Translations under genes and position numbers: made by a program
Origin: Eledone cirrhosa
Taxonomy: Eukaryota
DNA: 64,000 nt
Direction: 5' to 3'
Assembly: GCA_964016885.1 (NCBI GenBank)
Contig: OZ024743.1
Coordinates: 349,680,001-349,744,000, forward strand
Shown: positions 1,050 through 61,262 of the stretch, in pieces
Layout: each line of letters opens with the position of its first letter
How positions within the stretch are numbered: position 1 is the stretch's first letter
Notes under the pieces: model-generated
The model's database searches: none
Seen by the model: only the letters and a program-made list of their open reading frames with translations
What the model was told of the DNA's origin: nothing

Positions 1050-1173
<124 letters not shown>

Positions 1174-1301
1174 CAAAGAGATATTTAATTCTTTGGTTAT
1201 TGAACAAATTTATTTATAACATATTCGAAGCACTCTACAGTTTTTTTTAGTATAATATCAATGAAATTAATAAATGCAAACTATATTTATAAAACCATAT
1301 T

Positions 1302-1360
1302 TATTTTATTATATATATTTCAAGGGTACTAATTTTGGTACGCACTCATCAGATAAAATA
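1302..1360 (-). ncRNA. Minimal type I hammerhead ribozyme motif, copy A (PLE terminal repeat)
   Basis: Minus strand: tattttat-CTGATGA-gtgcgtacc aaaatt agtaccctt-GAAA-tatata-TA-ataaaata. Stem I is a perfect 8 bp, the core is intact, stem III is palindromic, and stem II is partly mismatched. Confidence 0.7.
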
Positions 1361-1469
1361 CAAAATTTGTTTTATAAATTGTGACATACCCAAGAAACCT
1401 GACTTTATCGGTTTAGGTTCAGTTGGGACATTAAATTAAAACATAAGAAAATAGTTATACAAATAGATA

Positions 1470-2042
1470 TTGCTAATTACTACTCCTCAATTACCCCTAA
1501 CTTACTTAATAAGTCACTTGTTTATGCTTCAAAATATACGGAATTATCATTTTAATCGCACGCAATACCCTAATTGAATTTAATAACTATCTCTGGACAA
1601 GGGCTGACATACAGAACAATTTGGACATCAAAATGGGATCATCTGACTCAGCTCAAGTAACAGATCTCGTTGGAATATTTATTCTTAATGTACTACATAG
1701 AAAAATACCAGAGATGGCCGGAGGTTTATATCGCGACGATATGTTACTTATAGTCGAACACCATAGTAATAGTGAAGTTAATAGGAAAAAGAAATCTACC
1801 ATAGAATTTTTCAATAATTACAACTTTAAATTAGAAATTGAGAATAATAATAAAACTGTTTACTTCTTAGATGTAACTTTAAACCTTAGCTCAGTTCTGT
1901 ATCACCCTTTCCATAAGATTAATGAAAACCTAAACTACGCAAGCTTCCATTCTAACCATCCTAGAAATGTAAAAAATACTATTGTCAATAGTGTCCAGCA
2001 ACGAATTTCACGCATTTCAGCTAATAAAAATATTTTTGATAA
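1470..2042 (+). mobile_element. Penelope-like element reverse transcriptase fragment (5'- and 3'-truncated)
   Basis: ORF 1621..2145: DIKMGSSDSAQVTDLVG...GGLYRDDML...VYFLDVTLNL...PFHKINENLNYASFHSNHP. Clearly homologous to the RT at 14798..15799. Homology stops at ~2042, where another repeat begins. Confidence 0.85.
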
Positions 2043-2570
2043 ACTGACAAAGCTCTGTTTTGTGCTTTTTGGTACTTATCAAAGTTCACCACTCCTCCTG
2101 TTTGCTGAAAATTATGTGTGTTGGATTCTTATAAAATTCCAGTAATAATCAGGAACTGATTATACAGAGCGGTCGCCGGTCCAGCAGAAATTGAAAATTA
2201 GAATTGGTGCTCTGAAATAGCGATATATTTATACATGAATGTATATATAGTGTATTTTGCAATACACTGTATGCTTAATAAAAAGCATTTTGAAGACCAC
2301 ACGCTATTGTTTTAAAATAGTGACAATGTCACTTATTTAAATTTTCTGCAAAGAGGGGCAGATAAACTGAAAAAGCTCTGTTTCGTACTTTTTGGTACTT
2401 ATCAAAGGTCACCACTCCTCCTGTTTGCTGAAAATTATGTGTGTTGGATTTTTATAGAATTCCAGTAATAATCAGGAACTGATTATACAGAGCGGTCCCC
2501 GGTCCAGCAGAAATTGAAAATTAGAATTGGTACTCTGAAATAGCGATATATATATAAGAATGTATATATA
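2041..2570. repeat. Partial tandem duplication: ~210 bp repeated with a ~324 bp period
   Basis: aaactga(c/a)aaagctctgttt...ctctgaaatagcgatatat at ~2041-2250 and ~2364-2570. Confidence 0.9.
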
Positions 2571-2705
2571 GAATCCAACACACATAATCCCGTTAAGGGT
2601 GAAAGCAGCGATTCTTTGCTTAAACTTAAATCTGTTATTTATATATATATTTATATATATATATATATATATATATGTACTAAAATTTATATATATATAT
2701 ATATA

Positions 2706-3550
2706 AATTTTAGTACAGCATTAACGAAGCTTTAGATTGCGGCCAAGCTAACGAATGCAAATTCGGTATGTAGCTTTAGCACTCGGATGGGTAAAAAGTA
2801 CCACAGAGTAATAACAATACGTTTAGACAGCTTAGCAAATCAAGTATAGCGATCGGCAGTCCAGCCACATCACCAGAGCAACGAAAATACAGGACTCAGG
2901 AAAAGATTTTAGACTGACCGAGACAAAACGGTGAGACTGAATGCAAAATATATAATGTATATCGTATAGCACACGATATACATCACATACAGCACACAAC
3001 ATCAGCGCTAGGTTTCTGCAAATCCAGGATCGACAAATTCCGCTTGCAGGGGTCTGCAAGTTAATGGTTTTTGACGACAGAACAAAGGATTTCCTTCTTC
3101 AGCAAGTCTTGTGTTATTTAGCCTCTGCGGGTATGTTCTAGCATTAAATTTCGCTATAGACACGTGGTTTTCTCCAAGGGAGGTAACCCCCGCTTTGGCG
3201 GTGAATTCCAATTTGAGACAAAGGAATGAATTCCTTTAGACAAACCGAATTAAGCACTCAACCAGAAGTTATCAAAGAAACATAAACAATTAATCAATCA
3301 ATAGAATCGTCTAATTAAATTAATCAGTTAATCGTTATCTAGGAGTAAAATACAAATTTTAGTATAGCATTAACGAAGCTTTAGATTGCGGCCAAGCTAA
3401 CGAATGCAAAATCGGTATGTAGCTTTAGCACTCGGATGGGTAAAAGTACCCCAGAGTAATAACAATACGTTTAGACAGCTTAGCAAATCAAATATAGCGA
3501 TCGGCAATCCAGCTGCATCACCAGAGCAACGAAAATGCAGGACTCAGGAA
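2706..3550. repeat. (TA)n-flanked element with ~200 bp terminal direct repeats (1.3-mer of a ~650 bp unit)
   Basis: aaattttagta(c/t)agcattaacgaagctttagattgcggcc...caggactcaggaaa at ~2706-2903 and ~3354-3551. TA tracts on both sides. Confidence 0.85.
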
Positions 3551-3844
3551 ATATATATATATGAACAGACCTAGCTCTCAAAACGGCCGGAGTTCAGCCG
3601 TCAGGGTCCTGACTCTTTTCCTATTACCCACTATACTACCCAGTATCGAGTATTTTGGTGCGTTATGGTCGACCAGATTGAGCCTCGAACTGATCAATAA
3701 ATTTAATGAAGATTTAGCACCTAGTCCATTTATTATTTGTAGTACACTCTTCTTAGTACAACACAAATATACCCACTGGAAACTACGCATCGAGTATCCA
3801 CTTTGATGAACCTACAGTAACTGGACGTAACAATCCCTAAATAC

Positions 3845-3882
<38 letters not shown>

Positions 3883-3923
3883 CGATATTAAACAAATGGA
3901 AACTATATTTATAAAACCGGATT

Positions 3924-3989
3924 TATTTCGTTATATATATTTCTAGGATATCATATTAAAAATATGGTATGCCTTCCTCAGACAAAATA
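3924..3989 (-). ncRNA. Minimal type I hammerhead ribozyme motif, copy B
   Basis: Minus strand: tattttgt-CTGAGGA-aggcataccatat tttta atatgatatccta-GAAA-tatata-TA-acgaaata. Stem I shows a compensatory change relative to copy A. The first stem II pair is A.A, so this copy is probably impaired. Confidence 0.62.
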
Positions 3990-4167
3990 CAATACATAAG
4001 CTGTTTCATAAATAATTTTGACATACCTGTTGAGTGCTTTTATATCAGTTATAAAATATTTACTCGTTGTAACCCAACAATTTTAAATATAACTTTTGCA
4101 TATATATATATATATATATATATTAATTCAAAATATTAACAAAAATAGACATTCGTGTGATCAAGTA

Positions 4168-4234
4168 TATTTTACTATGCATATTTCAGAGGTACTGAGC
4201 TATCTTCAACAGTACGTCCTCATCAGATAAAATA
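4168..4234 (-). ncRNA. Minimal type I hammerhead ribozyme motif, copy C (best preserved)
   Basis: Minus strand: tattttat-CTGATGA-ggacgtactg ttgaagatagct cagtacctct-GAAA-tatgca-TA-gtaaaata. Stem I is 8 bp, stem II is 9 of 10 paired with one C.C mismatch, and stem III is palindromic. Lies just downstream of a PLE 3' coding remnant. Confidence 0.78.
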
Positions 4235-4239
4235 AGATG

Positions 4240-6100
4240 ATGCATGACATACCCTGACTAAGTAGATGGTTAAAATTCAGTCATGGCAGTGAATAAGATA
4301 TGACAAAACTCAATATTTATATACCTTAAGATTGAGACATGAACAAATTACATATAATACAGAGGGTGCGTGTGAGAAAGCTTATAAAGATACATAATTA
4401 TAAACAACTACTAATATAATATAAACTTACATAACTGTTAGAGATTCAAATAATTAAAATTATTGATGAAAGAAGTGAAAGACAGAGAGAGAAACAGATG
4501 AGGAAAAAGAGAGTTACTAGAAGTATAAAAATATCTTATGCACGACAGCAAAAGAAATTTGATTAAGGATAGAGAGACGAGGATAAAATAATTTTTTTAG
4601 TATAAAGCATAGGAGGGAGATTTGTATTGTCGTGGATAAATAGCGTATAATTAGATGATGCAAAAATATATATATAAATAAATATATATGTGGGCATAGC
4701 TTTGTGAATGAATAATTTCGAATCGTTAAATTATCTAGAAATAATCAATCAATCAAAATATCAAATATATCTGGGGTTTATATATGAGGGTTTATTTTCG
4801 AGTCCTTAAGTTAATTAGAAATAGACTATTAATCAATTATATATATCCCAACGCATCCGGATGACCGTTAAATTTCGAATCTTTATGTTAGTTCAAAATA
4901 GTGAATTAATCTAAAGGCATATTATTTCAGGCTATACAATTTATAAGTATTTATATTATAGTATAATATCATATTTAAAGTATTTGCAAACAAGAGAAAG
5001 AAGAGACTTAATATTTTCTTCATCCCGAAGGTAATCCAAATTAAATTATATTAAACAAATGTTATATTAAAGAGATTTCATATTAAAAAATAATCATTAT
5101 ATAATTTAGAAAGTAATTACAATTATAACTTTAAAAATTTATAATTAAAAATTAGAATGCCCTTAAGTATCCAAAGGCCTTATAATTATACTTAAAAAGG
5201 ATATTATAAAACTAGATATAGGCATTTGTCTAAATTTATACAAAGAGTACATTGTTTAAAGTTTAAGACGATATTAGTCAGTTATATAATAAATAATTTA
5301 CTGTTAATAGTGTTAAAAATAAGGTTTTACGTCAATTATTATATTTAAAAAAATTATTCAACTAGGATCATGTAATACAAATCAAACTTCATGAATCATA
5401 AAGCATAAAACACAGATTCAAAATAAATAAATGATTGGTTTGCGATCCTATAAGTGTCAATATATAAGCTATATAATTTAAAAATACAAGAAAATGTTTA
5501 AGGATCTATATTATAGTATAATATCTTATTTAAAGTGTCTGTATACATGAGAAAGAAAAGACTTAAGATTTTCATCAACCCGAAGGTAATCCAAATTTAA
5601 TTATATTAAAAAAAAGTTAAATTAAAAGATAATCATTATATAATTTAGAAAATATTTAACAATTATAACACTAGAATGTCCTTAAGTATCCAAGGCACTT
5701 ATAAATGTACCTAAACGGATGTTATTAAACTAGATATACACATTTGTCTAAATACATACAGAATTTAAAGCTTAAGACGATATTAGTGAATTATATACAT
5801 ATAATAAATAATAAATACAATTATGTTAATAATGTTATAATTGAAGTTTTACATAAAGTTAAGTGGAAAAAGTTTGTCGACGAGGATCGTGTACGACACA
5901 TATACCATAAATATATAAATCAAACATCTTGAATCTTAAATAAATGAATAGTTTACGATTCCTTATAATTGTCAAACATATAAGCTATATATTTTAAAAA
6001 ATACAATAAACCCCGAAAAAATTAAATGTATTTAAACAATCAAATGATATGCATACTCATCAAAAGATCATGTTAACAGACTATATGTTTATATATAACC
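4240..6100 (-). mobile_element. Highly decayed Penelope-like element 3' region with an internal ~540 bp tandem duplication
   Basis: Minus-strand remnants NII*FGLPSG (cf. PLE NIIWFNPPF) at ~5050 and ~5605, and LCFILKKL / CCRA-HK-like remnants of the PLE C-terminus at ~4535-4610. Duplicated blocks at ~4930-5490 and ~5460-6000. Confidence 0.5.
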
Positions 6101-6312
6101 CTTAATCCAACATTAATCATATCGTAAATAAATAAAAATTATTAGAAGGTTTTATAATCTGTTATAGTATCGTTTTACGCACTCAGTTGATAAGAAACGT
6201 CAAAAATTAAAACTTATTTATTCAATGTTTTTTCCTGACTTTTTTTGTGAGGTTTGGAATGTAGAAGAAGCTTTATGCAGGCAATTTGAGAATAATCCAC
6301 TTTTTTTGTTGC

Positions 6313-7530
6313 CATGGTGGCTGCCAACTCGTTTTCGAGTACGGCCACTACTTTATATCCATGTAGGAGAACCCATACCGATGCGCTGAACGAGTGTGAC
6401 TTTTTGGTCCAGCCAGCGACTTGAAAATTCTCGTTGGTACAAACACTACACTTGTGACAATTATTGACACATAGTGCTGGGCCCATGGTGCCATGTGACG
6501 ACAAGTGCAGAGAGATCTCCAGATATAAAGCAATGCCTGTGCCGTGAAGCTTTTATAGTGAGCAAAGGCACTGCACAAAGCCAGTCCCACTCTCTTAACC
6601 AAGATGATATTTATCAAAAAGAAGAACAAGTCAACATCATTGGATACCATCAGGGTTGCAGGTGTTATATCAGAGTTTTCCTTCTCCTAGAATTCTGCCT
6701 TGACAAAGGCTAAGAGGTCATCTCTCCCGGTGATTTTGGATGGCCATTGGCTCTTAAGAGCTCTTTGCCCTTTGACAGGTTTTGTTTTTAGTCCTGAAGG
6801 ATGTCCAAAGTCACCCTCCTCACCGAGAAACCTTGGTGGGGTTGCCAGTTTAGTCGCCAACGACCCGACCATGGGACATGTTGTACTGGGATACATGTTA
6901 CCAGTAGCACAAACTGGTGACCTGACATACATACATACATACATGGTGGCTGCCAACTCGTTTTCGAGTACGGCCACTACTTTATATCCATGTAGGAGAA
7001 CCCCTACCGATGCGCTGAACGAGTGTACTTCTTAGTCCAGCCAGCGACTTGAAAACTCTGGTACAAACACTACACTTGTGACAATTATTGACACATAGTG
7101 CTGGTACCATGTGAGGACAAGTGCAGAGAGATCTCCAGATATAAAGCAATGCCTGTGCCGTGAAGCTTTTATAGTGAGCAAAGGCACTGCACAAAGCCAG
7201 TCCCACTCTCTTAACCAAGATGATATTTACCAAAAAGAAGAACAAGTCAACATCATTGGATACCATCAGGGTTGCAGGTGTTATATCAGAGTTTTCCTTC
7301 TCCTAGAATTCTGCCTTGACAAAGGCTAAGGGGTCATCTCTCCCGGTGATTTTGGATGGCCATTGACTCTTAAGAGCTCCTTTGCCCTTTGACAGGTTTT
7401 GTTTTTAGTCCTGCAGGATGTCCAAAGTAACCCTCCTCACCAAGAAACCTTGGTGGGGTTGCCAGTTTAGTCGCCAACGTCCCGACCATGAGACAGGTTG
7501 TACTGGGATACATGTTACCAGTAGCACCAA
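6313..7530. repeat. Near-complete tandem duplication of a ~630 bp unit ending at a (CATA)n/(TA)n tract; probably retroelement-derived
   Basis: catggtggctgccaactcgttttcgagtacggcc...gttaccagtagcac at ~6313-6911 and ~6942-7528, with (CATA)n between and after the copies. The duplicated ORFs 6348..6650 and 6982..7266 confirm it. Confidence 0.85.
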
Positions 7531-7558
7531 CACATACATACATACATACATACATACA

Positions 7559-7654
<96 letters not shown>

Positions 7655-8360: not shown

Positions 8361-8486
8361 TCATGTTTTATATTTATATATATATATATATATATATGTA
8401 GGAGGTGAGTTTTATTGTAGTACAATAAAGCAATGCAGATATCGGATAAGAAGCACTCTACAGTTTGTAGGACTGTTCTTATATAT

Positions 8487-8527
<41 letters not shown>

Positions 8528-14639: not shown

Positions 14640-16120
14640 TTATTATGTTGTTCTGAAAGTTTACCTCCTGCTGTGTTTTAATTTGTTGAAAATAAGTATT
14701 AATCTTTCTTTTATTACTACTAGCTATATGGTATGCTATGTTACGTGTGGTAGAGTAAGAGATTTTAATGTTGTTTTTATTTATAAGATTATGGTACTTA
14801 TGGCCCGATGGGAAGTTTCTTTTCCAGGATTGAGAAGAAAGCCTTAGGTAAGTTGGTAGAGACGTTTAGATTGAAAGGGGGATTGAAAAATGTATTAGTT
14901 CTTCTATTTTTATTTTTTATATCTATTGAGGTATTTCTGTTTATAATATTTTGGTGTCTACTTTGGCGCGAGTTAAGTTTGATACTACCCTTCGTATTAG
15001 AGTAAGGATGGCTATTATTCTTATTATTATTTTTCCTCATGGCCATATTGTGAGAAATAATACTGTAACTATGTGATTTTATAGGTAGGAATTCAATCCC
15101 ATTATTATGACCTGATTTAGCTAATGCCTGATTATAGTATTGTGAATAATTGTTAAATATGGTTTCGTTATAAGATAGATTAGAGATTCTATTAGATATT
15201 CCTTTAGTGATTGAGTTTAATATGGATGTATGGTGGTTAGACTTGGGATCTACATAAATTAGTCTTTCGTTAGGTTTATGAAAGGGTGTATATATTTTAG
15301 AGTCTAGGTAAAGGGTAGCATCCAGGAAGTTAACATGTTTAGTGCTTTTGTCTATGGTGATACTTAAGTTGAAGTTTTTGAAAATTTTATGTAAGAGTTT
15401 CCTAGTTCTTTCTATATTAAATTTGTTATAGTCTATAAGGAGTAGTGCATCATCGCGGTATAAACCACCGGTGAGGCATTGTAGGTCCTTATGGATTTCA
15501 TTTAGTAGATATAGGCCCACCAAATCAGTGACCGGCGCCGAGTCACTAGATCCCATAGTTATGTCAAAGTTGTTATGCGTATCCTTGCGGGTCCATAATT
15601 GATCTTCAAATGTAATTATGGTTTTACGGGCCGCAAGTATGACATCAATCTGGGATCTAGTCATGTCACTATTGTTCATGGCCATAATACGTGCTTTATT
15701 TAATAGGATAGGGGAAATAGAGGTGCAGTATGAATTGATATCAAACTGTATACATTTTTTATTTTTGTTCTCTTTAATATCCTTAAACCATTCAATCACT
15801 TCACCCGTATTTCCCCACTGGTTAAGATATATTTTGTGCTTAATCTGTGGGATGATTTTATCTAAAATGTTCTTACTGATGATACCAATGTCAGATTTGG
15901 AAGGGCAGATTAGTCTTATCGAAAGGTTAATACTGAAATCTTCCTTATGATCCTTCAGATAGAATCCTGCGGTGTTAGGGGTGTATGGCTATGTATGCCT
16001 CTGAAGTCCAAATTTACACACTATACTACGGCCTTCCATATTAATATCTTCTAGGTTTTTAATGGTAGTTTTCATATAGCTCCTATGTAGTTCTTTATAT
16101 ATAAATTTTCTATATGTATC
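14640..16120 (-). mobile_element. Penelope-like element, RT and thumb region (frameshifted; no GIY-YIG seen)
   Basis: RLICPSKSDIGIISKNILDKI...QWGNTGEVIEWFK...IQFDINSYCTSISP...FDITMGSSDSAPVTDLVG...GLYRDDAL...VNFLDATL...PFHKPNE...SNH...FNPPFNLNVSTN, then after a frameshift HKYHNLINKNNIKISYS. Lies between (TA)n tracts. Confidence 0.9.
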
Positions 16121-16201
16121 ATAATCTATATGTATCATAATATATATATATATATTAATCTATAAATATCATAATATATATATATATATATTCATCTATA
16201 T

Positions 16202-22703: not shown

Positions 22704-23542
22704 TTACAAAAATATAATTAAAACTGGCAACAAAGACAAAAATATAGAAATAATAGAACAAGCTGATGTCAAACGTGACAGTTTGTTGGGACATAACGTT
22801 GCGTTTGGGTAAGATGGCAAAGAGACAAAATCCTGCCTGGAAGCGCCACGCTTAAACAACGGTGGAACGGTTCTCTCGATGAAATGAGCGTAAAGAAAGT
22901 CTATTTTACTAGAATCGTTTTTTGCAGTTTTGAAAATAATCGGTAAATTCATATCCCAACCATCGGCTTCGCTCATGTATCGTAGGAGTCCCTTGAATCT
23001 CATGCGAAATCTATCAACTTTATTGGTAGCTAGAAGAACAGCTTGTCCAAATTTGCCATGTGTCAAGTAAAGTTGTTGTTTGGACGAGTTTAAATAAATA
23101 GTAATGTTCCCAAAAGCAGGATGTCCATAAATACCGACATACTCCGAAAGGGCCCGCTGGTGCATTTGTGGTTCGGTAAATCTATCTTTCTTCTTGTGTT
23201 GCTTTGACTTCCATCGACCGTAGAAATTCTTGGCGCCATTATCTTCTAGAGAAGATGTTTTCTGTGCCACCACAACGTGTGCAGTTTTTTTCCTACGCTT
23301 CGTTTTATGATAATTGTGTAACCAAGGATCTGGGAATGTACAGGAACTGGATTGATTGAGCCAAGCCTCCTGTCCTAGCAGCAAATCTGCGGCATAATGA
23401 TGAATGACTCTTAATGCATTCTTAGAATGTTTGTTCATAGGACCGTTAACACTGCTGAAAATCGCCACATTATTGTCTGGGAATAACCATATTAGGGAAT
23501 CGTATCCGAATATCCTGCCATTGTGCTGAACGTTATGGAAAC
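22704..23542 (-). CDS. Beta-lactamase-related serine hydrolase (peptidase S12-like), terminal exon: HxG motif, DUF3471-like domain, hydrophobic C-terminal tail
   Basis: Acceptor cttttcag|GT at 23543/23542 is in phase with the preceding exon. Translation GFHNVQHNGRIFGYDSLIWLFPDNNVAIFSSVN...EYVGIYGHPAFGNITI...SACSIISIFLSLLPVLIIFL*. Confidence 0.9.
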
Positions 23543-23616
23543 CTGAAAAGTACAGATACAAAAAATATATGTAGAGAGACAAAAAAAAAGAAAAAAATAG
23601 AGATAGAGATAGGGAG

Positions 23617-23705
<89 letters not shown>

Positions 23706-24618
23706 AATATATAGAGAGATAGATATAGATGGATAGATATAAATATAACCGTTATTTCAGGAACATTTTACTGATATTTCTAGCAGCTCAAACGTTAATG
23801 TAAGAAGCTTCCTGCCTGGTTCGTATATGAACATTTATATTGCTCTGGTATATTTTTCCAGATATCAAAGATCAGTACGTTCTGTCAATTGCAAATATAT
23901 TTAATCACTAATAATACGAATGAATGTTATATACAAGAAACAAAATTATACGGCAGGTTTATTTCCCTTAACTGTAATCAGATTTTGATTGCAAAAATAT
24001 TACATTTCTTTGAAATTTCTCCACTTAACATCCTAGGAAATCTTTCCCGTTGCAATTTAACAATGTATATTTAACATTTTCTCGATGGAAATAGATCAAA
24101 TACAGGCATGAGACATCGTATCAACGAGGTCGCTAAGATCTCTGACTCACTACTGAAAAATGATTATAAAAGCAGCATGCTGAAAGAAGTAGGAAAGAAC
24201 ATTAAAATACGGATACAACACACATTCTTGAAAGAGAAGCACAAAAATCAGTTTCCGCAAAGCAAATATTGATATCTGCTTCAATCATATTTCTTTAGAC
24301 ACTTTCCATGATCAGATAATTAACGATTTTGAAAAACATGGAATTGAAATAAACGAATCAAGAAAGCTGAATGCGAAATGTTCTAAATGTGGTATTCGGG
24401 TGGTTTAAAGAGAGTTTCTTTGTGAGCTACCATAGAAGTCCCCCATTCAATTTGTGTTGAGATAATGGACAGGTGGTACTAACACATCCTGAACCTCAAG
24501 AACTAATTAACTTGAACTATTAATTACTGAACTATTAATTACTTGAACTATTAATTACTGTCAAATTTGGATTCCATATGATATTTACATCACAACCCAG
24601 CTTTAGATAGTCAGATAT

Positions 24619-25209
<591 letters not shown>

Positions 25210-27439
25210 AAGAATTAATTTTATTAGACTTAAATGTTGGAGAGAAAAGGAAAATATTTTTACTTCAATCTTACATGATTAGCCTCCACCCTCTCGGTGG
25301 GCTTTTAAGCATGAATGTGTTACGAATGTTTCAATTATAAAATATATCTTAAGCAAATTATATAATTTGGAAGAAACTTGTCAATACAAAATAAAAGCTT
25401 CTCCGACGGTTTCGAGGTTGTTCCTTAAACTTACTTGTTCGTGACAGAGAATTCCACAGACGTGTGTATTTTTAACACTGTGTGACAAAGCCAGCCCTTT
25501 ACAGGTAGCGTTTGTCCGGCGGATTTCCATAGAGTTTCCATCTACCCAATTTCACTGATAAGATCTATGGAAAAAAAACTTATCCAATTCGTCCCGGAGC
25601 AATGTTTCGAATCCGAATTTTCATGACTGAGAAGCGAACCTAACTTTCTGTCAATATACTCACGGATATTTGAGCTCAAGAAAAAGTATGAAGTCTCAAG
25701 AGATAAATAGATTAGGCACACTTCTTATCGATATACACAAATCTTAGTTGATAGCAGTTGATTGAAGGTCATTGTAAGGAAGACTAACACATTTTGAAGT
25801 TTCCCCCTTATTACATATGTAAAGTATGTAATATTGGAAGGATAGAGTAAAATGAAATATATTTTCGCTGTTTGAAGCTCACTTTGATTTCAAATGCCCC
25901 AATAGCGGTTGCAGACAATTCTATATGAAAATAAATATACATTTTCAGGCCCACTCAAACTGGTGAGAGCCTTGCGTTTTCATGTGCCGTATTTGTCATA
26001 TCTCTACGAAATGTTACCATCGTTTACTCTGCTGTAAGTTTCAGATGCTCAGCTTTACATTTCCCATTGGTCATTTATCTTGAGCTCTCATATACAGCAT
26101 CGCTAAAGCTGTTTCACGAATACCAGACTTTGGATTGCCGATCAGTAAATATTTCAGCTTAGTTCGTTTCATTTTATCTGCAATCCTTGAGCTACAGATA
26201 TTTAAACTGGACAACAGTGGCATTGTTCTCAATTTTTTTGAGACGGCATCTATAGCGAACCCTTATTAAATGATGAAAATACTTTTACTCTAACTTTCAC
26301 TACACTGTTTTCCTTCATTTATTTATCCATACTTCAAGCAAATACTTTGTTATACACAAGATCAGTCAGTTTTTGTGCCATTGGCATTTGTGTTAGAGAT
26401 GCTAGTTGATAATTCATTGACGAATTATCTTTCACGTGATGAGAGGAACCGTACGTAAGAGAATAGTCTTCATCTCTTAGCACAGCTAAGGGAAATGGAT
26501 TGATAGTGATCCTGAACAAATGTGCAGCTTCACCTACATAGCTTAGACAATACGCTATTAGATCAACTATTCAAATGGAAATTATTTCATTATTATTTGT
26601 ACTATGAATTTGGAACTATTATTTACACTATCAACTTTTGTAATTACACTAGGAGATGTATATATTGGTTTGGTTTGTATAGGCTTTCTAAACCAGAATG
26701 TGCCAATAGATGTAAACAAGAAAGGAATAGCTAACAGTAAAATATGTAAGAGTAAATTTTCAGTGTTTCTTTGTCATAAGGTACGCAATATGCAGCGTGT
26801 GTTATATTCTCAGGGCTAGCTAAAGTGGGCTAACAAAACCAGGATGTTTTAACTATGGACTGCGCTCAGTATTGTTACTAATCTGCAAAACAATGACCCT
26901 ATAGATTATTTTTCACTAAACTACTTATTTGACTTCTGTACCTCTTTGACTCAGTATTACAATACAACATAAGGACACACTGATCATGTCTTGCAGGAAC
27001 AGCTGCATCAACAACGGGTCTACAAAGATTCCTTTCTATATATATTCCGCTTTGAAACAGCAACTTATCTGACCTCCGAGCGTCTTGAAAATAGAAGAGC
27101 ATACTGGAGTTTATAATTCTAAATGCACAATGTTCGAAAAAAAGTCGTAATGATCATGGCTGAATACTATTAATCATAGGCATGCTAGATCAAGGCATAT
27201 CTGCAGCTAAACAAGATTAATATCAACAATATTCGCAACAACAACAATATTTACATTTACAACAATAGCAACAATTATTACAATAATAACATCAACAAAA
27301 ACAACAACAAAATCTGCAGTGGCACCAACAGCAATCACAACAACAATAAATACTGCCAGAAGAACCACAAAAGCCACAGCAACGTGGTTGATAATATGTT
27401 GAGTGTGGTGTGGATTATTGTTACGTTCATAATATTCAC

Positions 27440-27699
27440 CTCTGTATATTCCAGAGCTCCAGCCTAAATCATAAGCGAACCGTCCTTCAGATATAGGAAA
27501 TGCTGGTTGCTTCAATAATTTCAAACCTAAAGGCATGGGTGTTGGTATTTGAGGTGTATGTAGTTCCTGGAACTCATTTTGACTCACAAGTCGATAGCCT
27601 CGCGTGTCCAGACCACCATTTAACTGAAACTGGAGCCATTTCTGCATATCTATTGAATTGGAGCATATGGTACCGGAAGGCCCTGCAGGTCCGAGCGAT
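27440..27699 (-). CDS. Beta-lactamase-related serine hydrolase, internal exon
   Basis: Acceptor tactttcag|A and donor G|GTGAAT; phases 2 and 1 match the neighbouring exons. Translation SLGPAGPSGTICSNSIDMQKWLQFQL...AYDLGWSSGIYRG, typical of the PAG(G/S)IxS..DMAKW segment. Confidence 0.92.
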
Positions 27700-27703
27700 C
27701 TGA

Positions 27704-27750
<47 letters not shown>

Positions 27751-27829
27751 TTGTCTTCTGAATATTTAATAATTGTTTCTAGCAAAATAACAGAACAAAG
27801 GGTAAGAATTTCAGGCAAGAATTAGTCGA

Positions 27830-30129: not shown

Positions 30130-32334
30130 CCTCTATAACTCTGTAGAGTGGACGTTCCACTGACCGCAATCCCCGCCTGGTAGAGGGCAACATTCGAGAT
30201 GCCAGGCGCCCAGTTTCGGTCCTATTTTGACTCAGGACTGCAGCTCAGTCAACGAGACGAACCGTGGAAAGACCCGTCTAAAAAATGGTGACCTCACCAG
30301 TTCACCTTTTAGGCAGGATATCTGGAGATGCCGCAGCCTGAGCGCATGTTTGTGCATCATTAGCCACGACATTCCCAGCCCTCTACGTAGAGGGAGCTGG
30401 CAGCAGATGGACCGCCTCACCAACAGCACCTGTCCCTCCACAAAATTTGAAGAGGAGCCGTTCCAATTTGGCGAGGCGGGAACGGAGGCAAGGCGCCACG
30501 TTCTGGCAGTAATAGATGACGGATGTGATGTACGCAGTCGCTACTCCCGCTTGACCTTTCTGGGACAGTTTCCTTTCGGCCCATTTCTGGGTGAGAGTGG
30601 CTAACCTGATCGTAACCTCGTCCCAATTCTTAACCACCTAGATATCTAGTCCGAACCAGATCCCGAGCAACTTTACCAGTGCGTCCGTCCATCACCCTAC
30701 GACGCAGTTGAACGGCATAGGCCTGCCTCTCCAGGTGCCAAGCTGCAAGTCCTCCGACTATTCTAGGTTCAGTTTCGCTGCCATCAACCTTTCATATTCC
30801 TACAAGCAGGTGCCGACAATCTCGACTTCCGAGGTGTACGACACCATTAAGCTGATGTCGTTCGCATACGCCGACACTGCCCTTTCATGTCCCGGTTCGA
30901 ACAGGGTGCTCTCCAGCAGCTCCAGCTACCGCAGAAAAGACTCAAGAATCAAAAGATACACGAGAGAGGAGAAAAGGCGTCCTTGTCGGACCGATCGGGA
31001 GATCTGAAATGGTTCCGAAAGATGGCCATTAACTTTGATCAACGAGAAGATGTTGCAGATCCAGCCTCTGAAGGTGCGACCGAAGCCAACTGCCTTGAGG
31101 TCTGCGCCAGGTATCGATGGTCGACTCTATCGAAAGCTTCCAATTTATCTAAATTGATCAGAGCTCCAGCGAAGCGAAGTTTACACCAGACCCTCTCTAT
31201 GATGTATCACATGAGGTGGAGGTTATCGTTTATGGATCTGGTTAGGATTGTGCAAGTTTGCGCCTCCACTACTGAATCCTCAAATACAAGTGTCAACCTC
31301 TTCGCTAACACCTTGGCAAAATCTTAAACTCTATGTTTACCAGAGTTATGGGGCTGAAGTTGTCTAATATATCGCTCTTGTTCCCGGTTTTCCTTCTTAG
31401 TGTCACTACGCCCGATTCCGCTCCCCCGAACAGTTGAATAAAGTGCTTACAAAAGGCCTCACACATCTGCCTGGAATCGTTCAGCTTGCATTCGTCTCGG
31501 TCAGTAAAATACCAAATTGTGGTTTTATTACCACGCTGCGCCCATCGAACGGCTGTCGTTCCCTCCTTTCTTAGAGCATGCGCTTTAGCTATGTCAATGC
31601 AGTTTTCGTGATTCGCATTAAAGAAATGGTCTAGTGCCGTTCTCGCAGCTAGCACGCTGGTTGCAATGCCACTTCTAATCGCCTCATCAACCCCCCCCCC
31701 TCCGTTTTATTTTTTCCTATTGCTATTTCTTTGCTGAATACTTTGTATTCTACTCTAATCGCTTTCGAGAGACAGCCCCACCACCTGATGTTGACGATGC
31801 CTTCTGTCAGCTGCTGCTTAACTAATTTGCTAATCCGGTCACTGGAGGCTTTACGCACCAGGAACGACACGTTAAGCTTCCAGTAACCGAGTCCCGGTCT
31901 GTGTGTTCTATCTAGGTTGACCTTGCAGATCACAAACTTGTGGTCTGAATAGGTGACCCTATGTAATTGTGGACATACTATACTATCTTCATCAACTAAC
32001 TTAATTAGAAACCTATCTAAGTACGATCTAGATGTCCCTAAGCATTTAATCCAGGTCCACACTGGCGCATTAGTGAAGTCTATTTGATAACTGTCAGATA
32101 TTTGAAACTGGCTGAGCAGGGCTTTGAGGTTTTTGCACCCTCCGCTTCTATCGGCTACTCCCACACAGTCCCAGCGTGTGTCCAAGATGCCGTTCCAGTT
32201 CCCCGCTAACACTAAAGGGCGAGACAATCCCAGAAAAGCTTCTAGGTGCCTAAATAAATCTGGCTGTCCTGCCCCACTCTGGGCGTAGACGGCCACCGGT
32301 CTAAAGGCACCACCAACTTACTATCCGCGTCTAG
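30130..32334 (-). pseudogene. L1/Tx1 ORF2 endonuclease and RT remnants
   Basis: AVYAQSG...LVLAGNWNGILD...WTW...SYLDRFLI...YSDHKFV...YWKLNVS (APE); FSPITLVNIEFKIL, INLDKLEAFDRVDHRYL, SAYANDIS, KLLGIW (RT). Many frameshifts. Confidence 0.88.
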
Positions 32335-32479: not shown

Positions 32480-35235
32480 GCGTTGACTACTTCTTCTGGA
32501 ACCCGATTCTAGAGTCCAGAGATGCGGATCGAGAAAGCAGCTTTCCGTCTATTTAGGCGAAATCGGCGGTGAAACAGCTTTTGGCCATGTCCACGTAGAC
32601 CCCTTTCAAGTGCCAGAGTGAATAGCAGATCTTAATGGCCATTGAGGGAGATCGTAATGACCATTGAAGAGATTATAAGCCAAAATGAGATCGCCTCTTA
32701 GCCGTCTACGCTCCAAGGAGAAGAGGTTCAGCTTCTGCAGCCGGCTTTCGTAGGGCAGCTCATGAAGACCCTGTACCATTCGAGTCGTTAGTTGTTGAAC
32801 TCTCTCCAAGTGATGGATATCCCGGATGAGATATGGGTTTGATGCTTGGATGCCATATTCTAGGTGCGGTCTCACGAGAGCGACATAGATAGGCCTGAAA
32901 ATTTCTGGAGTGAGTTTGGCAAAGGAGCGTCAAATAAGAAAAAGAGAGCTCCTTCCCTTTTGAATGCAATGTTTTGATGGTTTGAAGGACGAGTCGACCA
33001 GCATACCAAGATCTTTAGTCTCCTCAACCTCCTTCAAAGGAGCAGAGCCATCGTTGAAGGTAAGAGCTGAGTTATAAGGTGTATCTACTGCCATATGGCA
33101 ACACTTATCGACATTGAGGTATAAATCCCAGTCAATGGACCAACTCTATGCGCGCTGGAGTCTGGACTTGAGATTATCGATCTCGCCCCTACGGGCTACC
33201 ATTTTCACATCATCTGCAAATAGAAGTACGTTTCCAACAATCACGTCCGGCATGTCGTTGATGTATAGAAGGAAGAGAATTGGGCCCAACACAGAGCTCT
33301 GGGGAATGCGGCTGCCTACACCCACCCCCAATGATAGACTGCCATTGATCCGAACTCTGCAAGTACGACCCTCAAGAAATTATCCAATCCACTTTATAAT
33401 CGAATCATGGAGACCATAGTAGCTGACCTTATGCAGGATCAGGCGGTGGTTGACAGAGTCAAAGGCTTTTGCGAAGTCGAGAAAGATAATATCGGCCGCA
33501 TCTCCATCGTCTATTATCCTCGTCACCCATTCTTCTATCACGAGTAGGTTTGTAAGACAGGAACGTTTCGAGATGAAACCGTGATGAGATGGAGAGATGG
33601 CAGTGAAAGACGCAAGATGAGCCATAATTGCCCGCTTGATTAGAGATTCCAAGGCCTTACAGACAATTGAGGTGAGGCTCACGGGTCTGTAGTTCCTCGC
33701 ATCTTCTTTGTCGTCTTTTTTAAAGATAGGGCAAATTGTAGCTACTTTCCAGTCGGCAGGAACAACTCCGGTAGCCAATGATAGGTTGAATAGTGTGGCT
33801 AGAGGTTTAGCAAGGTTGGGTGCAACTGCACCCAAAATCGTTGGATGTAGACCGTCTGGAGCATGCCCCTTATTCACATCTAAGGACAAAAGCAACTTTT
33901 CCACCTCCTCCGGTCTGACGGTGGTTGACTGCATTGGTGGGGCGATCATGTTTAGATTTGGAGGTTCTCTGCCATCGTCCTCCTTGAAGATATTTGCGAA
34001 AACATCGGCAAAAAGAGAAGCTTGTTGGTCAGCGGGTTCAATAACTGCACCTTCGGGGTTTCGGAGAGTGACAATTTGGTTATTCAGTTTTTGATTTCTC
34101 TGCACGTGAGCATAAAAGCACTTTGGATTACGACCGGCATCATTTGCAAGTTCCCTTTCAAAATTTTGCCTTCCAATTCTGGAAATATGCTCGACATGAT
34201 TTCGCTGGTTTCTGTAGACTTCAAATGCCGCCGCAGACATGGTCTCCAAGCAGCGTTTCTTAACTTCCGTTCGCGGATAATTGTCTTTGTTATCCAGTGT
34301 TTGTGTTTCTTGCGTTTTGGCGTTCTCAGCGGCACTGCCATTTCTGTTAGCCCAAGTAGAATTTCCTTTATTTCTCGCCACAAAGTTTCAACAGACTGAT
34401 TTTCAGTTAGGCTGCGCCAATTTATCTCGTTGGAGGCCATTTTGATAAGATCATGATTCATAGCAGCAAATATTCTTCTCGGCTGATTCGAAACGGGAGG
34501 CGGTGCAGGCGAAGTATGCATGCTAAAGCTCAGTACTGCATGATCGCTTTTCCCAAGTAGAGACAGAACTTGCAGAGACGATACGGATCTAGGATAACAG
34601 GAGAAGATAAGGTCTAGTAACGACGGTCGTTGACCACTTCGAGCCCTTGTCGGTTTTGTAACATGCTGGCAGATGAAACATTCTTCCGTCGTATCGAGCA
34701 ATAGTTGGTCGAAGTTATTGTTGGACATGCACACATTTGAGTTCCAGTCTATAGTCGGGGTATTAAAATCCCCGAGTATAAAACAGTTATTTGGACACCT
34801 TGAGACAGCTTTCATTGCATTAATGAGACTCTGATCTTCATCTGTTGTAGAACCAGGACTGCGATAGATGGAAATAACGGGAATAGTTTCTCCACCCACA
34901 TTAAGACTGCAAAGAACAGCATCAAAGTTCTCCGAAAGTACGGTGTTCGGTGCTAGAGGTTGACGGGATGGTTTGAGCGATGATCTTGCATAATCGATAA
35001 CTCCCCCACCTTTTCTTTGAGATCTGTCACATCGGAATGTAGTAAAGTCAGGAATGTGAATCTCTGCATCTTTGACTTCTGAATCTAACCAGGTTTTGTA
35101 TATGACTATGAGGTCTGCCTTCTCGTCTTCAATAACGGAATGGAGATCATCAAGTTTGGACAGAAGAGAGCAAGCGTTGGTTAAAATAACTTTGAATGAG
35201 TGATCAAGGGACGGCGATTTAGGCTTTAATCGCTT
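32480..35235 (-). pseudogene. CR1-like ORF2 (APE endonuclease + reverse transcriptase), frameshifted
   Basis: LTNACSLLSK...KTWL...GGGV...IYRSP...ILGDFN...LLDLIF...SDH; PDGLHP...WKVATICPIFKK...NYRPVSLTS...HGF...FLDFAKAFDSVNH; PQSSVLGPILFLLYINDM...FADDVK; RPHLEY...LFSLERRRLRGDLI. Confidence 0.93.
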
Positions 35236-35354
35236 TTTGGGGATCTTCGGGAGGAAGTTGGAGGGCTTCTTGCACACCTTCTCATCTGAGATGGCTGTTT
35301 CTTCTGCCAGGGAAGCTTGGAGTGTTTGGATATCGTTATTGGTGCCGCCCAAAA

Positions 35355-36318
35355 GTAAGAGTGTACTATCTTTCCGTTTCTTATCCGCAGACCAGTCTCT
35401 CCGGCAGCTATGCGAGACCTGAGTTCTGTTTTCAAAGTTCTACAGCGGATTCTTTCTTTTAAGGAGAACTCCTTCCGAAAATCCAATTTACTACCCCGGT
35501 AACACTTTCTGGCTTTGGCGAGGAAGTCCTCTGCTTGCTGAGAAGTAGAGAATTTGACTTTGATGGGTCGGGGTCTTGAGTTGAGATTTCGTTCTTCAGA
35601 TTTTTGGCCAATTCTCACGGCTCGGACTTGTGTCTTGTCATCTGAATCGCCAATAGTGACTTTGATAATGTTCGTGATAAACTCAAAGTCTTGGTGGTAC
35701 CTCTCCTTTTCAGTATTTGCTCAGCTTTCGGAAACTCCGTATGCATAGACAGATTTGTTACACTGTTGTTCTTCAGCGCTGGCAGCTGTCTTGAGGGTAC
35801 CACATTTACCTGTAACATAATGGCGACCGTTTACTGAGTTGACCCGATCCGCTTCATCTTCAAGCGGACTTGTATTTGACGTAACAAAATTATCTGCTGA
35901 GCTGATAGGGAGACAAGGTTTGTTTTGATCATCAACCGTGTCGGAGTGGCGGTGTCGTCTTTTGGACGACCGCCAAACCCTGGCAGGGGGATTTACAGTG
36001 TCTTCATCAGAGATTAAACCTGCATCATTCATCGTGGTAGATGCACCTGCGGGAATTTGATGAGTAGATGAGACCAATGTGCAGCATCTGCCATCTTCTT
36101 GCTTTGCTTCTTTTGGCGCTTCGGTTTTGCATTAACGTCTTCGTCTGGGAAGATGCAGATTTAGACGGTCTGGAAGTCGCATCATTAGGAGGTTGAAGTG
36201 ATAATATCGTTTCTACCATAATCAACATCTTTGACATGAGGTCATTAAGCTGAGTTTGCAAATTAGCGTTTTTCAGTTCGATTTGGGTAAGGTTCAATTT
36301 CAACCGCTTAAATTGCAA
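35355..36318 (-). pseudogene. CR1-like ORF1 (coiled coil + RRM-like region), frameshifted
   Basis: Coiled coil LNLTQIELKNANLQTQLNDL; SVYAYGVSES; VRIGQK...RPRPIKVKF...LDFRKEFS...LRIRNGKIV. Confidence 0.7.
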
Positions 36319-47579: not shown

Positions 47580-48460
47580 TACATTTAAAATTATAAATAT
47601 CATGTGTGAGATAACCTCGAACCTGCGCCTTATCGTCTAAGTATATATCTCAAAGAATAAATCTGAGCTGTTAATCATTACAAAAAAGTGAATGACATAT
47701 ATACATATATATATCTAATGGTATATACGTACAATAGAATATGAACTTTAACGGAAGACAATTTGCATTGCATATAAGAACACATGGTTCATTACGGTAT
47801 CATATTAACATTTAACAAAAAATGTTTAATATAGATACCTGATAAAAATAATATATACTTTTCCTTTAAACATATCCTTCAGAAATCAGGAATAGGTTTC
47901 ACCAAAATATCAGTGCAGTTAGATGATCGATCTGGCTCGTCAGTAAAAGAAAATCGATCCATCTGAACGTACACATGTTAAAATACAGAACTGAGAATAG
48001 CGAAAGAAGCATATGGTGTTATAAAAAAAAGCCACTGTACACTGTTACTGTCCGTGTGACGTGAAAGGATTTTAGGACAACTAGAATTAGCAGCCTAATC
48101 TCTCAAGATAGTAAAGCTCAAACAAGTAAATATATTACATTTAAAATTACATATGACGCCTTATCATCTAAGAATAAACTCAAAGAATAAATCTGAGCAG
48201 TTAATCATTACAAAAGAGTGAATGACATATATGCATGCACATATATCGAATGATACAACAGAACATATAAACTTTAACAGGAGACATTCTGCATTGAATG
48301 TAAGAGTACATGGTTCATTACAGTAGTATATTAACATTTAACAACAATTTTAAATATATATATTTTTCCTTTATATGCCACCTGTTAAAGTTTATATGTT
48401 CTATTGTACGTATATATATATCATTAGATATATATGTATATATGTCATTCACTATTTTCC
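47580..48460. repeat. Direct repeat (~550 bp period) followed by an inverted copy of part of the unit
   Basis: cgccttatc.tctaag...aaagaataaatctgagc...catggttcattac at ~47625-47870 and ~48157-48372. 48382-48455 is the reverse complement of ~47685-47752. Confidence 0.75.
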
Positions 48461-54260: not shown

Positions 54261-54330
54261 GGCGTGTTGGTGTAATGGTATACATTGGTCCAGCAAACCT
54301 AAGATGTGGGTACGTGCCCCATGTACGTCA
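54261..54330 (+). pseudogene. tRNA-like cloverleaf with anticodon AGC (Ala); probably a pseudo-tRNA or SINE head
   Basis: Acceptor ggcgtgt/gtacgtc, D stem gtgt/atac, anticodon stem ttggt/accta (1 mismatch) with loop ccAGCaa, T stem gtggg/cccat. The T loop is tacgtgc rather than TTCRA and position 33 is C. A T8 run lies 10 nt downstream. Confidence 0.6.
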
Positions 54331-57964: not shown

Positions 57965-58358
57965 TATATATTGGTAAACGGAATAGAAAATGCTGACAAA
58001 TTGTTCACAGTTGAAAAATGGTTTAATTAGGAATAAAAGAGTATTAGTGATTGTATGGGTTAGTATTCAGTTGTGGTTTTAAGTTTTTAAGTTTTTACCG
58101 GTTGCGCATTTCTAAATGCTTTTCAAAAATAATTTTGAGATAGAGTGTCCGTGCTGTTTGCTCTGATCAGAGCAAACAGCACGGACACTCTATCTCAAAA
58201 TTATTTTTGAAAAGCATTTAGAAATGCGCAACCGGTAAAAACTTAAAAACTTAAAACCACAACTGAATACTAACCCATACAATCACTAATACTCTTTTAT
58301 TCCTAATTAAACCATTTTTCAACTGTGAACAATTTGTCAGCATTTTCTATTCCGTTTA

Positions 58359-60979: not shown

Positions 60980-61262
60980 GTATGGGGATAAGGAGATAGA
61001 CCTCAAAGACAAACTGTTTCAGTGTAAGTTTTACTAATGAAATAGTTCAATTCGATAAACTTGTAAAATCTAGCTTGAATTTGATTTTACTTACAAATGG
61101 TACTACGTTAAACGTTATTTTCATCCACGTTTAACGTAGTACCATTTGTAAGTAAAATCAAATTCAAGCTAGATTTTACAAGTTTATCGAATTGAACTAT
61201 TTCATTAGTAAAACTTACACTGAAACAGTTTGTCTTTGAGGTCTATCTCCTTATCCCCATAC
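60980..61262. repeat. Inverted repeat with 136 bp arms (perfect by eye) and an 11 bp spacer
   Basis: Arm 60980-61115, spacer tattttcatcc, arm 61127-61262. Confidence 0.95.

What the first reader, a model, noticed from the sequence alone, without database searches (positions are those of the whole stretch)
1302..4234. Three covarying minimal hammerhead ribozymes marking Penelope-like element ends
Seen: three minus-strand motifs (1302-1360, 3924-3989, 4168-4234) keep CUGANGA, GAAA and a UA cleavage site while the stems covary. Stem I is tattttat/ataaaata, tattttgt/acgaaata or tattttat/gtaaaata. Stem II changes G-C to A-U at position 5, and all three retain a C.C mismatch at position 4. Stem III is a short palindrome (TATATA or TATGCATA). 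Each copy is preceded by a conserved (G/A)GGTATGTCA motif about 20-35 nt upstream. Known: minimal type I hammerheads with palindromic stem III occur in PLE pseudo-LTRs and are thought to cleave as dimers. Inference: this is a lineage-specific PLE or retrozyme ribozyme family with a distinctive stem II, and copy C could still be active.
Basis: partly seen in the sequence, partly recalled or inferred. Interest (0 to 1): 0.75.

Follow-up and report, generated by a model that had tools for sequence, protein, structure and literature searches.

The report
Penelope leader hammerheads, copied uncut
The three motifs are real hammerhead-ribozyme folds at the ends of three ordinary, very abundant Penelope-like jumping genes of a known group, and the copy ends across the genome likely mark where their RNA starts and suggest it is copied back into DNA without being cut, possibly with the ribozyme inside an untested intron.

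Summary
The three motifs are real. They belong to three different families of Hydra-clade Penelope-like elements, not one tandem retrozyme. Intact relatives encode about 742 aa (RWR, DKT, C-terminal endonuclease), with a sense hammerhead in both pseudo-LTRs. Two disjoint core patterns give 82,827 exact matches. Stem II covaries around an unpaired position 4 (260 of 263). Helix III is self-complementary in the dimer register.

Earlier scan notes on other DNA already reported the Hydra assignment and tail hairpin. Added here:
- 39 of 120 truncated 5' ends fall within 3 nt of an initiator-like CACTRYC, the likely transcription start.
- GGTAYGTC lies 38-45 nt below it, where D. virilis Penelope has its splice donor.
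- 5' ends show no excess at the cleavage site.

Templates are thus likely linear and uncut. Splicing and cleavage are untested; no unambiguous intron-less copy was found.

The parts
1302..1360 (-). Hammerhead copy A (family A); predicted cleavage 1310/1309; U·U at stem II position 2
1170..1428 (-). Inverted pLTR arm holding copy A: starts about 4 nt below the inferred transcription start and ends at the long 3' end in (TA)n, i.e. a near-complete uncut copy of the RNA leader down to the long end
1382..1390 (-). GGTATGTCA motif of copy A (candidate 5' splice donor)
1427..2043 (+). 5'-truncated Hydra-type reverse transcriptase fragment joined head-to-head to arm A; 77% DNA identity to family A ORF in L076; its own 3' part is missing
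3924..3989 (-). Hammerhead copy B (family B); predicted cleavage 3932/3931; A·A at 10.1/11.1, shared by a small subfamily (4 copies in the sample)
3881..4028 (-). Sense arm of mini-insertion B, from GGTATGTCA (4027-4019) to the short 3' end
4027..4123 (+). Inverted arm of mini-insertion B (tail-hairpin region to the long 3' end), ending in the (TA)n tract shared with element C
4168..4234 (-). Hammerhead copy C (family C); predicted cleavage 4176/4175; rare loop III change and G at 1.1 compared with its family
4245..4253 (-). GGTATGTCA motif of copy C, 38 nt below the inferred start
4285..4291 (-). Initiator-like CACTGCC; A at 4290 is the inferred transcription start of the pLTR promoter
4120..6310 (-). 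3' end of a family C element: last ORF codons (about 6230-6310), about 1.9 kb 3' UTR, pLTR with copy C, short 3' end at about 4120

Best explanation
The three motifs are the type I hammerheads in the pseudo-LTR/5' leader of three related Hydra-clade Penelope-like retrotransposon families, left in (TA)n tracts as truncated, partly inverted insertion ends, and they likely act as weak, pair- or protein-assisted ribozymes that do not cut the RNA used for copying. SHOWN in sequence: sense position in both pLTRs, about 237 nt above the ATG; stem covariation; two fixed 3' ends, one per arm of inverted pairs; a pile-up of 5' ends at an initiator-like motif; no 5'-end excess at the cleavage site. INFERRED steps: (1) Pol II starts at the A of YCACTRYC. 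(2) The protein binds the RCTCC..GAGYGCTT hairpin, present twice, and primes both nicked target strands just upstream of the two copies. (3) Reverse transcription runs through the uncut hammerhead to the RNA 5' end. Most events stop there or earlier and give short inverted stubs like A and B; some jump to the identical 3' pLTR and continue into the ORF. (4) GGTAYGTC is likely the leader's splice donor as in D. virilis Penelope (about 50%), so spliced mRNA would lose the ribozyme. (5) Cleavage would need two hammerheads pairing through helix III, as in two-pLTR transcripts, and would trim or silence RNA rather than make the template.
For: Element link: 14 of 20 long-ORF loci have a sense hammerhead 235-243 nt above the ATG and 18 of 20 have one 1.4-2.1 kb after the frame. 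Family C hammerheads follow a Hydra ORF in 15 of 20 loci. Fold: N7 varies (U 194, A 30, G 18, C 15) while 6 of 263 differ elsewhere in CUGANGA. Stem II positions 2, 3, 5, 6 are Watson-Crick in 24, 28, 25, 29 of 29 haplotypes against shuffle means of 14-18 (0 of 2000 reach; relatedness not controlled). In-register helix III is ATATGTAT in 128 and ATATATAT in 116 of 263, and ATGCGCAT in family D (22,220 matches for the D-type pattern), a double compensatory change including the two central positions that can pair only between molecules. 3' ends: 260 of 316 at two sites; all 28 inverted pairs with both ends classed have one short and one long. 5' ends: 39 of 120 within 3 nt of the initiator A; 26-33 of 94 with one arm per locus, p about 6e-13 against uniform. 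Initiator-to-GT spacing is 38 (51 of 52, family C), 41-45 (49 of 52, B) and 42-45 (33 of 38, A). D. virilis has its intron 46 bp below the start (PMC2377424). Cleavage-site junctions: at most 2 of 30 inspected among 533, versus 4 of 30 among 332 at a control site. Uncut template and protein-assisted cleavage were shown in vitro for an Anolis element (PMC11167929).
Against: Nothing here shows transcription, splicing or cleavage. Against the donor step: +1 G is the least conserved motif letter (0.86 versus 0.93-0.98 at +2, +3, +5, +6 in 149 contexts); one subfamily reads GGCTAYGTC, though it has AAG|GTATG just upstream; family D has no good donor; no acceptor is shared by all families; no intron-less family B copies for two acceptor windows (0 and 0); 0 unambiguous among 57 family C exon-end variants. 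Against activity: G10.1-C11.1 in only 5 of 263, and the hammerhead fold is not the predicted equilibrium fold in extended context. The cleavage-site test cannot see junctions preceded by A, including (TA)n. Stem I and III pairing counts are partly built into the search pattern. Clade placement rests on motifs, not a tree.
Confidence: 0.7

Rival explanations
1. Circle model: the two pLTR hammerheads cut out a unit-length RNA that is ligated into a circle and copied round, giving partial tandems.
For: 22 of 60 ORF-bearing arms end at the long site, whose hairpin exists only in the 5' leader, so the template must have been circular, tandem or jumped. Several 5' pLTRs run upstream of the inferred start. 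Proposed in PMC4209133.
Against: A circle has no 5' end, yet 39 of 120 truncated copies stop at the initiator. There is no junction excess at H17. Circles could still supply the minority of long copies.
Confidence: 0.2
2. GGTAYGTC is an RNA latch, not a donor: it pairs with the 5' strand of stem II (its G with the otherwise unpaired C4) and keeps the ribozyme off until protein refolds it.
For: The motif's span matches stem II positions 2-9: 8 of 8 pairs in family C and 6-8 of 8 in B. The latch hairpin is the predicted minimum-energy fold for family C. Family D has GTGTTTT complementary to its own AAAACAC.
Against: No covariation: 121 of 144 cells paired versus 123 in shuffles. Family A breaks 1-3 pairs, and GTACGTC variants add an A·C mismatch. 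The D stretch also fits a local hairpin and is not clearly homologous.
Confidence: 0.25
3. GGTAYGTC is a DNA promoter element of the internal pLTR promoter.
For: It sits at a near-fixed distance below the inferred start, inside the zone that is the internal promoter in D. virilis. The conserved +7 C is not a splice-site position. Its reverse complement resembles a bZIP half-site (recalled).
Against: Spacing varies from 38 to 45 nt, unlike a strictly spaced downstream element (recalled), and the -1G/GTA-GT pattern fits U1 pairing.
Confidence: 0.2
4. Non-autonomous tandem retrozyme family.
For: Copies B and C are 244 nt apart on one strand, within the retrozyme unit range (PMC7229834). Most genomic copies are short and ORF-less.
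Against: B and C belong to different families and are separated by an inverted arm and (TA)n. Each family has ORF-bearing members. Listed neighbouring copies are largely inverted pairs or kilobases apart.
Confidence: 0.03

Closest known systems
Hydra clade of C-terminal-endonuclease Penelope-like elements, incl. Hydra-1_Obim of Octopus bimaculoides (Craig et al. 2021, PMC8557442; read: section 11, part 2 of the text, passages, supplement part 2 and excerpts)
   Same: RW(K/R) and DKT motifs, C-terminal endonuclease with CxCX5C, CxxC and CxH, sense hammerhead near the 3' end, (TA)n targets, inverted 5'-truncated arm and tail.
   Different: Units are 3.85-4.1 kb pLTR to pLTR with a long 3' UTR (published ones generally under 3 kb). 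The tail is about 95 nt (published 30-40 bp). The Hydra-1_Obim hammerhead differs in sequence, and no hammerhead in File S2 is drawn with an internal stem II mismatch or a GAAAUAU core junction. Compared by eye only.
[quoted passage not shown]
   Same: Type I topology in pLTRs, long helix II, palindromic helix III, many families, mostly single truncated copies, dimer proposal.
   Different: Here helix I is 8 bp or more, a short helix III is present, G10.1-C11.1 is nearly absent, and a pyrimidine mismatch at stem II position 4 is kept across four families.
Drosophila virilis Penelope leader (Schostak et al. 2008, PMC2377424; read section 15 and passages)
   Same: Internal TATA-less promoter with initiator; donor 46 bp below the start versus 38-45 nt here.
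   Different: There the intron is shown and ends at the 5' end of helix I (PMC4209133). Here splicing is unshown and any intron would remove all or part of the hammerhead.
Poseidon PAc of Anolis (Frangieh et al. 2024, PMC11167929; read parts 1-2 of 4)
   Same: Two internal RT start sites explaining the tail, both strands primed, uncut RNA as template, protein-assisted hammerhead.
   Different: PAc start sites and hammerhead overlap the ORF start. Here both lie in the 5' leader, each start site just above a duplicated hairpin.
Metazoan non-LTR retrozymes (PMC7229834, passages; bioRxiv 10.64898/2026.07.22.740005, part 1 of 5)
   Same: Type I hammerheads with short palindromic helix III and very high copy number (axolotl 126,247).
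   Different: Not tandem same-unit arrays; autonomous ORF-bearing parents exist.

Membership tests
Type I hammerhead ribozyme | Core CUGANGA, GAAA, UH | tested here: met
   All three copies; family-wide only N7 varies
Type I hammerhead ribozyme | Helices I and II around the core, with covariation | tested here: met
   Stem I counts are partly by construction; shuffles ignore relatedness
Type I hammerhead ribozyme | Helix III able to form (monomer or dimer) | tested here: met
   Met for the families and for copies A and B (in-register self-complementary). Copy C has two A·C mismatches as a homodimer
Type I hammerhead ribozyme | Loop 1-loop 2 tertiary contact | not testable with these tools
   No canonical loop motifs recognised; the conserved C·C might serve (inference)
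Type I hammerhead ribozyme | Self-cleavage at H17 | not testable with these tools
   No RNA data; needs an assay
min-HHR of PLEs (Cervera 2014, strict sense) | No helix III/loop 3, helix I of 4-5 bp, G10.1-C11.1 | tested here: not met
   2-bp helix III plus 4-nt loop, 8-bp helix I, G-C at 10.1/11.1 in 5 of 263
Hydra-clade PLE | RWK motif near the N terminus, no N-terminal endonuclease | tested here: met
   RWR (conservative variant) about 35 aa after the first Met
Hydra-clade PLE | DKT in place of DKG | tested here: met
   KSDKTNN in families A, B and C
Hydra-clade PLE | C-terminal endonuclease with CxCX5C linker, CxxC and CxH | tested here: met
   L092 and L093; single copies have decayed letters. 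Pfam found no family
Hydra-clade PLE | No insertion in the fingers domain | tested here: met
   Motif A to motif B spacing about equal to published Hydra-1_Obim, counted by eye
Hydra-clade PLE | Sense hammerhead in the pLTR and (TA)n targeting | tested here: met
   TA-rich sequence follows 227 of 260 ends
Hydra-clade PLE | Phylogenetic placement with named Hydra elements | not tested
   No named Hydra reference was among fetched proteins; best named hits are Argonauta hians hypothetical proteins at 39-41%
Non-LTR retrozyme | Head-to-tail 150-450 bp units of one family, each with a hammerhead, no ORF | tested here: not met

The most novel reading that the evidence does not exclude
The hammerhead lies in a leader intron whose donor GGTAYGTC also latches stem II, so one short strand chooses among three fates: spliced, ribozyme-free mRNA; latched, uncut template; or self-cleaved RNA. 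Reverse transcription makes a strong-stop copy of the leader up to the transcription start and must jump to the 3' pLTR to copy the gene, which would explain tens of thousands of start-anchored stubs and give PLE hammerheads a regulatory rather than replicative role.
Probability: 0.25. Interest if true: 0.7.

Novelty: new member of a known kind. Interest (0 to 1): 0.4.

Why it matters
The window motifs are decayed ends of a known kind of element. The families are still useful. What PLE hammerheads do is stated as unclear in PMC8557442. Here 82,827 exact core matches in 3.0 Gb, intact ORFs and four covarying families let one read a likely RNA start, both RT start sites and the lack of cleavage scars from DNA alone. 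That favours linear uncut templates over the proposed circle, and gives exact positions for 5' RACE, splicing and cleavage tests. Searches found no paper on these octopus-type hammerhead families, their C·C stem II or a donor above the hammerhead. The library lacks most subscription papers and Repbase/Dfam were not searchable. An Octopus vulgaris repeat annotation lists Penelope-like families but mentions no ribozyme (PMC13282606, passages).

Tried and rejected
- Naiad assignment: first suspected from the RT motif, rejected because the endonuclease is C-terminal and the motif is DKT.
- An early idea of an ATACCC microhomology junction in copy A: dropped; the arm extends to about 1428.
- Rfam scans: no hammerhead match. 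Pfam: no relevant family for the PLE proteins.
- Sequencing runs: no RNA holder listed. Contigs of 5 runs laid on family C and B leaders gave no joint at the donor; these are contigs of unknown library type and no evidence either way.
- Intron-less copies: 0 and 0 for family B; acceptors inside the hammerhead or at ATATAG were not tested for B.
- Of 57 family C exon-end variants, most were point changes, small indels or internal deletions. L330 lacks a GT..AG stretch but has CAAG microhomology and that AG is not conserved. L333 joins exon 1 to an acceptor-like site of another repeat but is one G short if both arms share a parent, and has AGG microhomology. L351 joins unrelated flank. None counted as support.
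- Rows dropped: loci L051-L155 (picked by ORF or long-DNA searches) were left out of the 5'-end count, as were 99 of 219 copies that ran on or lay 90 nt or more above the start. In one search, L226-L285 were left out and only haplotypes seen twice or more were used (29, covering 206 of 263).
- The fourth descriptor hit at 47943 has no relative among fetched loci and is treated as probable chance.
- No tree, covariance model or structure prediction was run. bioRxiv supplements were not asked for; alignments in the Craig supplement were seen only in excerpts.

Full report
OBSERVATION. The minus strand holds three hammerhead motifs at the stated places. A descriptor (CUGANGA, GAAA, UH, at least 7 of 8 pairs in stem I and 4 of 6 in stem II) found them plus one looser hit in 64 kb; 200 dinucleotide shuffles gave a mean of 0.005. 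The C·C at stem II position 4 and the G-C/A-U change at position 5 are there. Rfam does not recognise them. The helix that must form runs from A15.1 to U16.1 and reads ATATATAT in A and B but ATATGCAT in C.

ABUNDANCE AND PARENT ELEMENTS. The core with family flanks has 60,607 (control 0), and a sister family D with loop ATGCGCAT has 22,220 (control 0). The genome is likely a cephalopod: the best named protein hits are Argonauta hians, 39-41%. Twenty loci chosen for long frames gave ORFs of up to 742 aa from the first Met; 14 of 20 have a sense hammerhead 235-243 nt above the ATG and 18 of 20 have one 1.4-2.1 kb after the frame. Family C hammerheads follow a related ORF in 15 of 20 loci, and family D is also ORF-linked. 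The proteins have RWR, DKT, YRDD and a C-terminal domain with CxCX5C, CxxC and CxH. These are the Hydra-clade features in Craig et al. 2021 (PMC8557442), whose supplement lists Hydra-1_Obim with a different hammerhead.

WINDOW ANATOMY. Copy A lies in an inverted arm (1170-1428) joined head-to-head to a plus-strand RT fragment (1427-2043). Copy B is a two-armed stub of about 240 nt (3881-4123). Copy C ends a 2.2 kb 3' piece of a third family (4120-6310). B and C share a (TA)n tract, so their 244-nt spacing is not a repeat unit.

RIBOZYME FOLD. Among 263 distinct copies, N7 is U/A/G/C (194/30/18/15) and 6 differ elsewhere in CUGANGA (the finder allowed one mismatch). Stem II positions 2, 3, 5 and 6 covary over 29 haplotypes, and position 4 is unpaired in 260 of 263 (C·C 232). 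The first pair is A-U (144) or G·U (91), G-C in only 5. In-register helix III is ATATGTAT (128), ATATATAT (116) or ATGCGCAT (5 here, the norm in family D). The central two bases stay complementary, which makes sense only between two molecules and fits the dimer proposal of PMC4209133. Computed duplex energies are -3.2, -2.2 and -10.5 kcal/mol, +7.0 for copy C with itself and +1.4 for C with B. ATATGCAT occurs in 4 of 263, and C's nearest relatives lack it. PMC7229834 (passages) reports efficient cleavage by many invertebrate hammerheads with a 2-bp helix III, so monomer activity is not excluded.

3' ENDS. Of 316 copies, 151 end at a short site and 109 at a long site, each a few nt above an RCTCC..GAGYGCTT hairpin that occurs twice in the leader; 35 run to the ATG and 21 end elsewhere. 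Of 38 inverted pairs, 28 have both ends classed and all 28 are one short plus one long. This matches two-site internal initiation in PMC11167929. Earlier scan notes report the same hairpin and fixed ends; they are not independent support. 22 of 60 ORF-bearing arms end at the long site, whose hairpin exists only in the 5' leader. A circle, a tandem RNA or a template jump is therefore needed for those.

5' ENDS AND THE UPSTREAM MOTIF. GGTAYGTC is a conserved island in otherwise divergent context. An initiator-like CACTRYC (consensus name recalled) lies 38 nt above its GT in 51 of 52 family C copies that retain it, 41-45 nt in 49 of 52 B copies and 42-45 nt in 33 of 38 A copies. Of 120 truncated copies, 39 begin within 3 nt of that A: 30 of 86 at 93% or higher identity to the reference, and 25 of 61 with an inverted or TA junction. 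With one arm per locus the count is 26-33 of 94. Window arm A begins about 4 nt below it. I infer this is the transcription start. In D. virilis the intron begins 46 bp below the start (PMC2377424), which makes the motif a candidate donor. Evidence against: weaker conservation of +1 G, a GGCTAYGTC subfamily, no donor in family D, no shared acceptor, and no unambiguous intron-less DNA copy. Since PLEs retain introns when they transpose (PMC2377424), the last result is weak. The motif can also pair with the 5' strand of stem II, and that is the predicted fold in family C, but it does not covary.

CLEAVAGE SCARS. Among 533 copies with a non-A base before the cleavage site, at most 2 of 30 inspected begin there. 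At a control site 13 nt downstream, 4 of 30 among 332 do. There is no excess, though junctions after A are invisible to this test. With the pile-up at the start site, this points to linear, uncut RNA as the usual template.

MECHANISM. Shown: position, covariation, end classes. Inferred: start site, hairpin-directed double priming, run-off at the RNA 5' end with occasional jump to the 3' pLTR, probable splicing of the leader (about 50%), and weak dimer- or protein-assisted cleavage acting on RNA that is not the template. No usable RNA data were available.

VERDICT. A real feature and a new member of a known kind: Hydra-clade PLE hammerheads with a distinctive stem II. The window copies are decayed insertion ends, and copy C is the poorest candidate for activity. 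Interest 0.4, mainly because the families give precise, testable positions for the open question of what PLE hammerheads do.

Noticed in passing
window 14801-16129 (-): A second, more distant Hydra-type PLE RT fragment (396-aa open frame, 43% to L084); no hammerhead of these families was found near it.
   Followed up: partly
window 8366-8505 (-): Tail piece (long end) of family D without its hammerhead, about 92% to L306/L307.
   Followed up: partly
window 47874-47951 (-): Looser hammerhead-like match (CUGACGA, 36-nt stem II region, long loop III); no relative among fetched loci.
   Followed up: partly
window 6313-7559: Head-to-tail dimer of an about 630-bp repeat (94% between units), found in 25 fetched loci; it abuts the truncated 5' end of element C.
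   Followed up: no
window 2038-2571 and 2701-3551: Two further repeats, each with an internal duplicate (94-95% alike), between the RT fragment and copy B; the second carries GAGTGCT motifs like the tail hairpin.
   Followed up: no
L333 (G000:C4:39615938-39618961), also L111, L258, L269: Family C first 38 nt joined at AG|GT to an about 690-bp repeat at a site preceded by a pyrimidine tract and AG: a spliced chimera or a template switch at a 3-nt microhomology.
   Followed up: partly
L092 and L139: The leader from inferred start to ATG is 327 nt in both a family B and a family C element despite different internal spacings; may be chance.
   Followed up: no
window 54261-54330 (+): tRNA-like match above the Rfam gathering score (31 versus 29 bits).
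   Followed up: no
window 58126-58207 and 61052-61190: Near-perfect palindromes, possibly small inverted-repeat elements.
   Followed up: no
window 33380-35439 (-) and 31649-32317 (-): Broken LINE fragments with endonuclease and RT domains (Pfam Exo_endo_phos_2 and RVT_1 for the first).
   Followed up: partly
window 22704-23756 and 27207-27821 (-): Open frames that look like exons of a host gene, so copies further right may be intronic; not checked.
   Followed up: no
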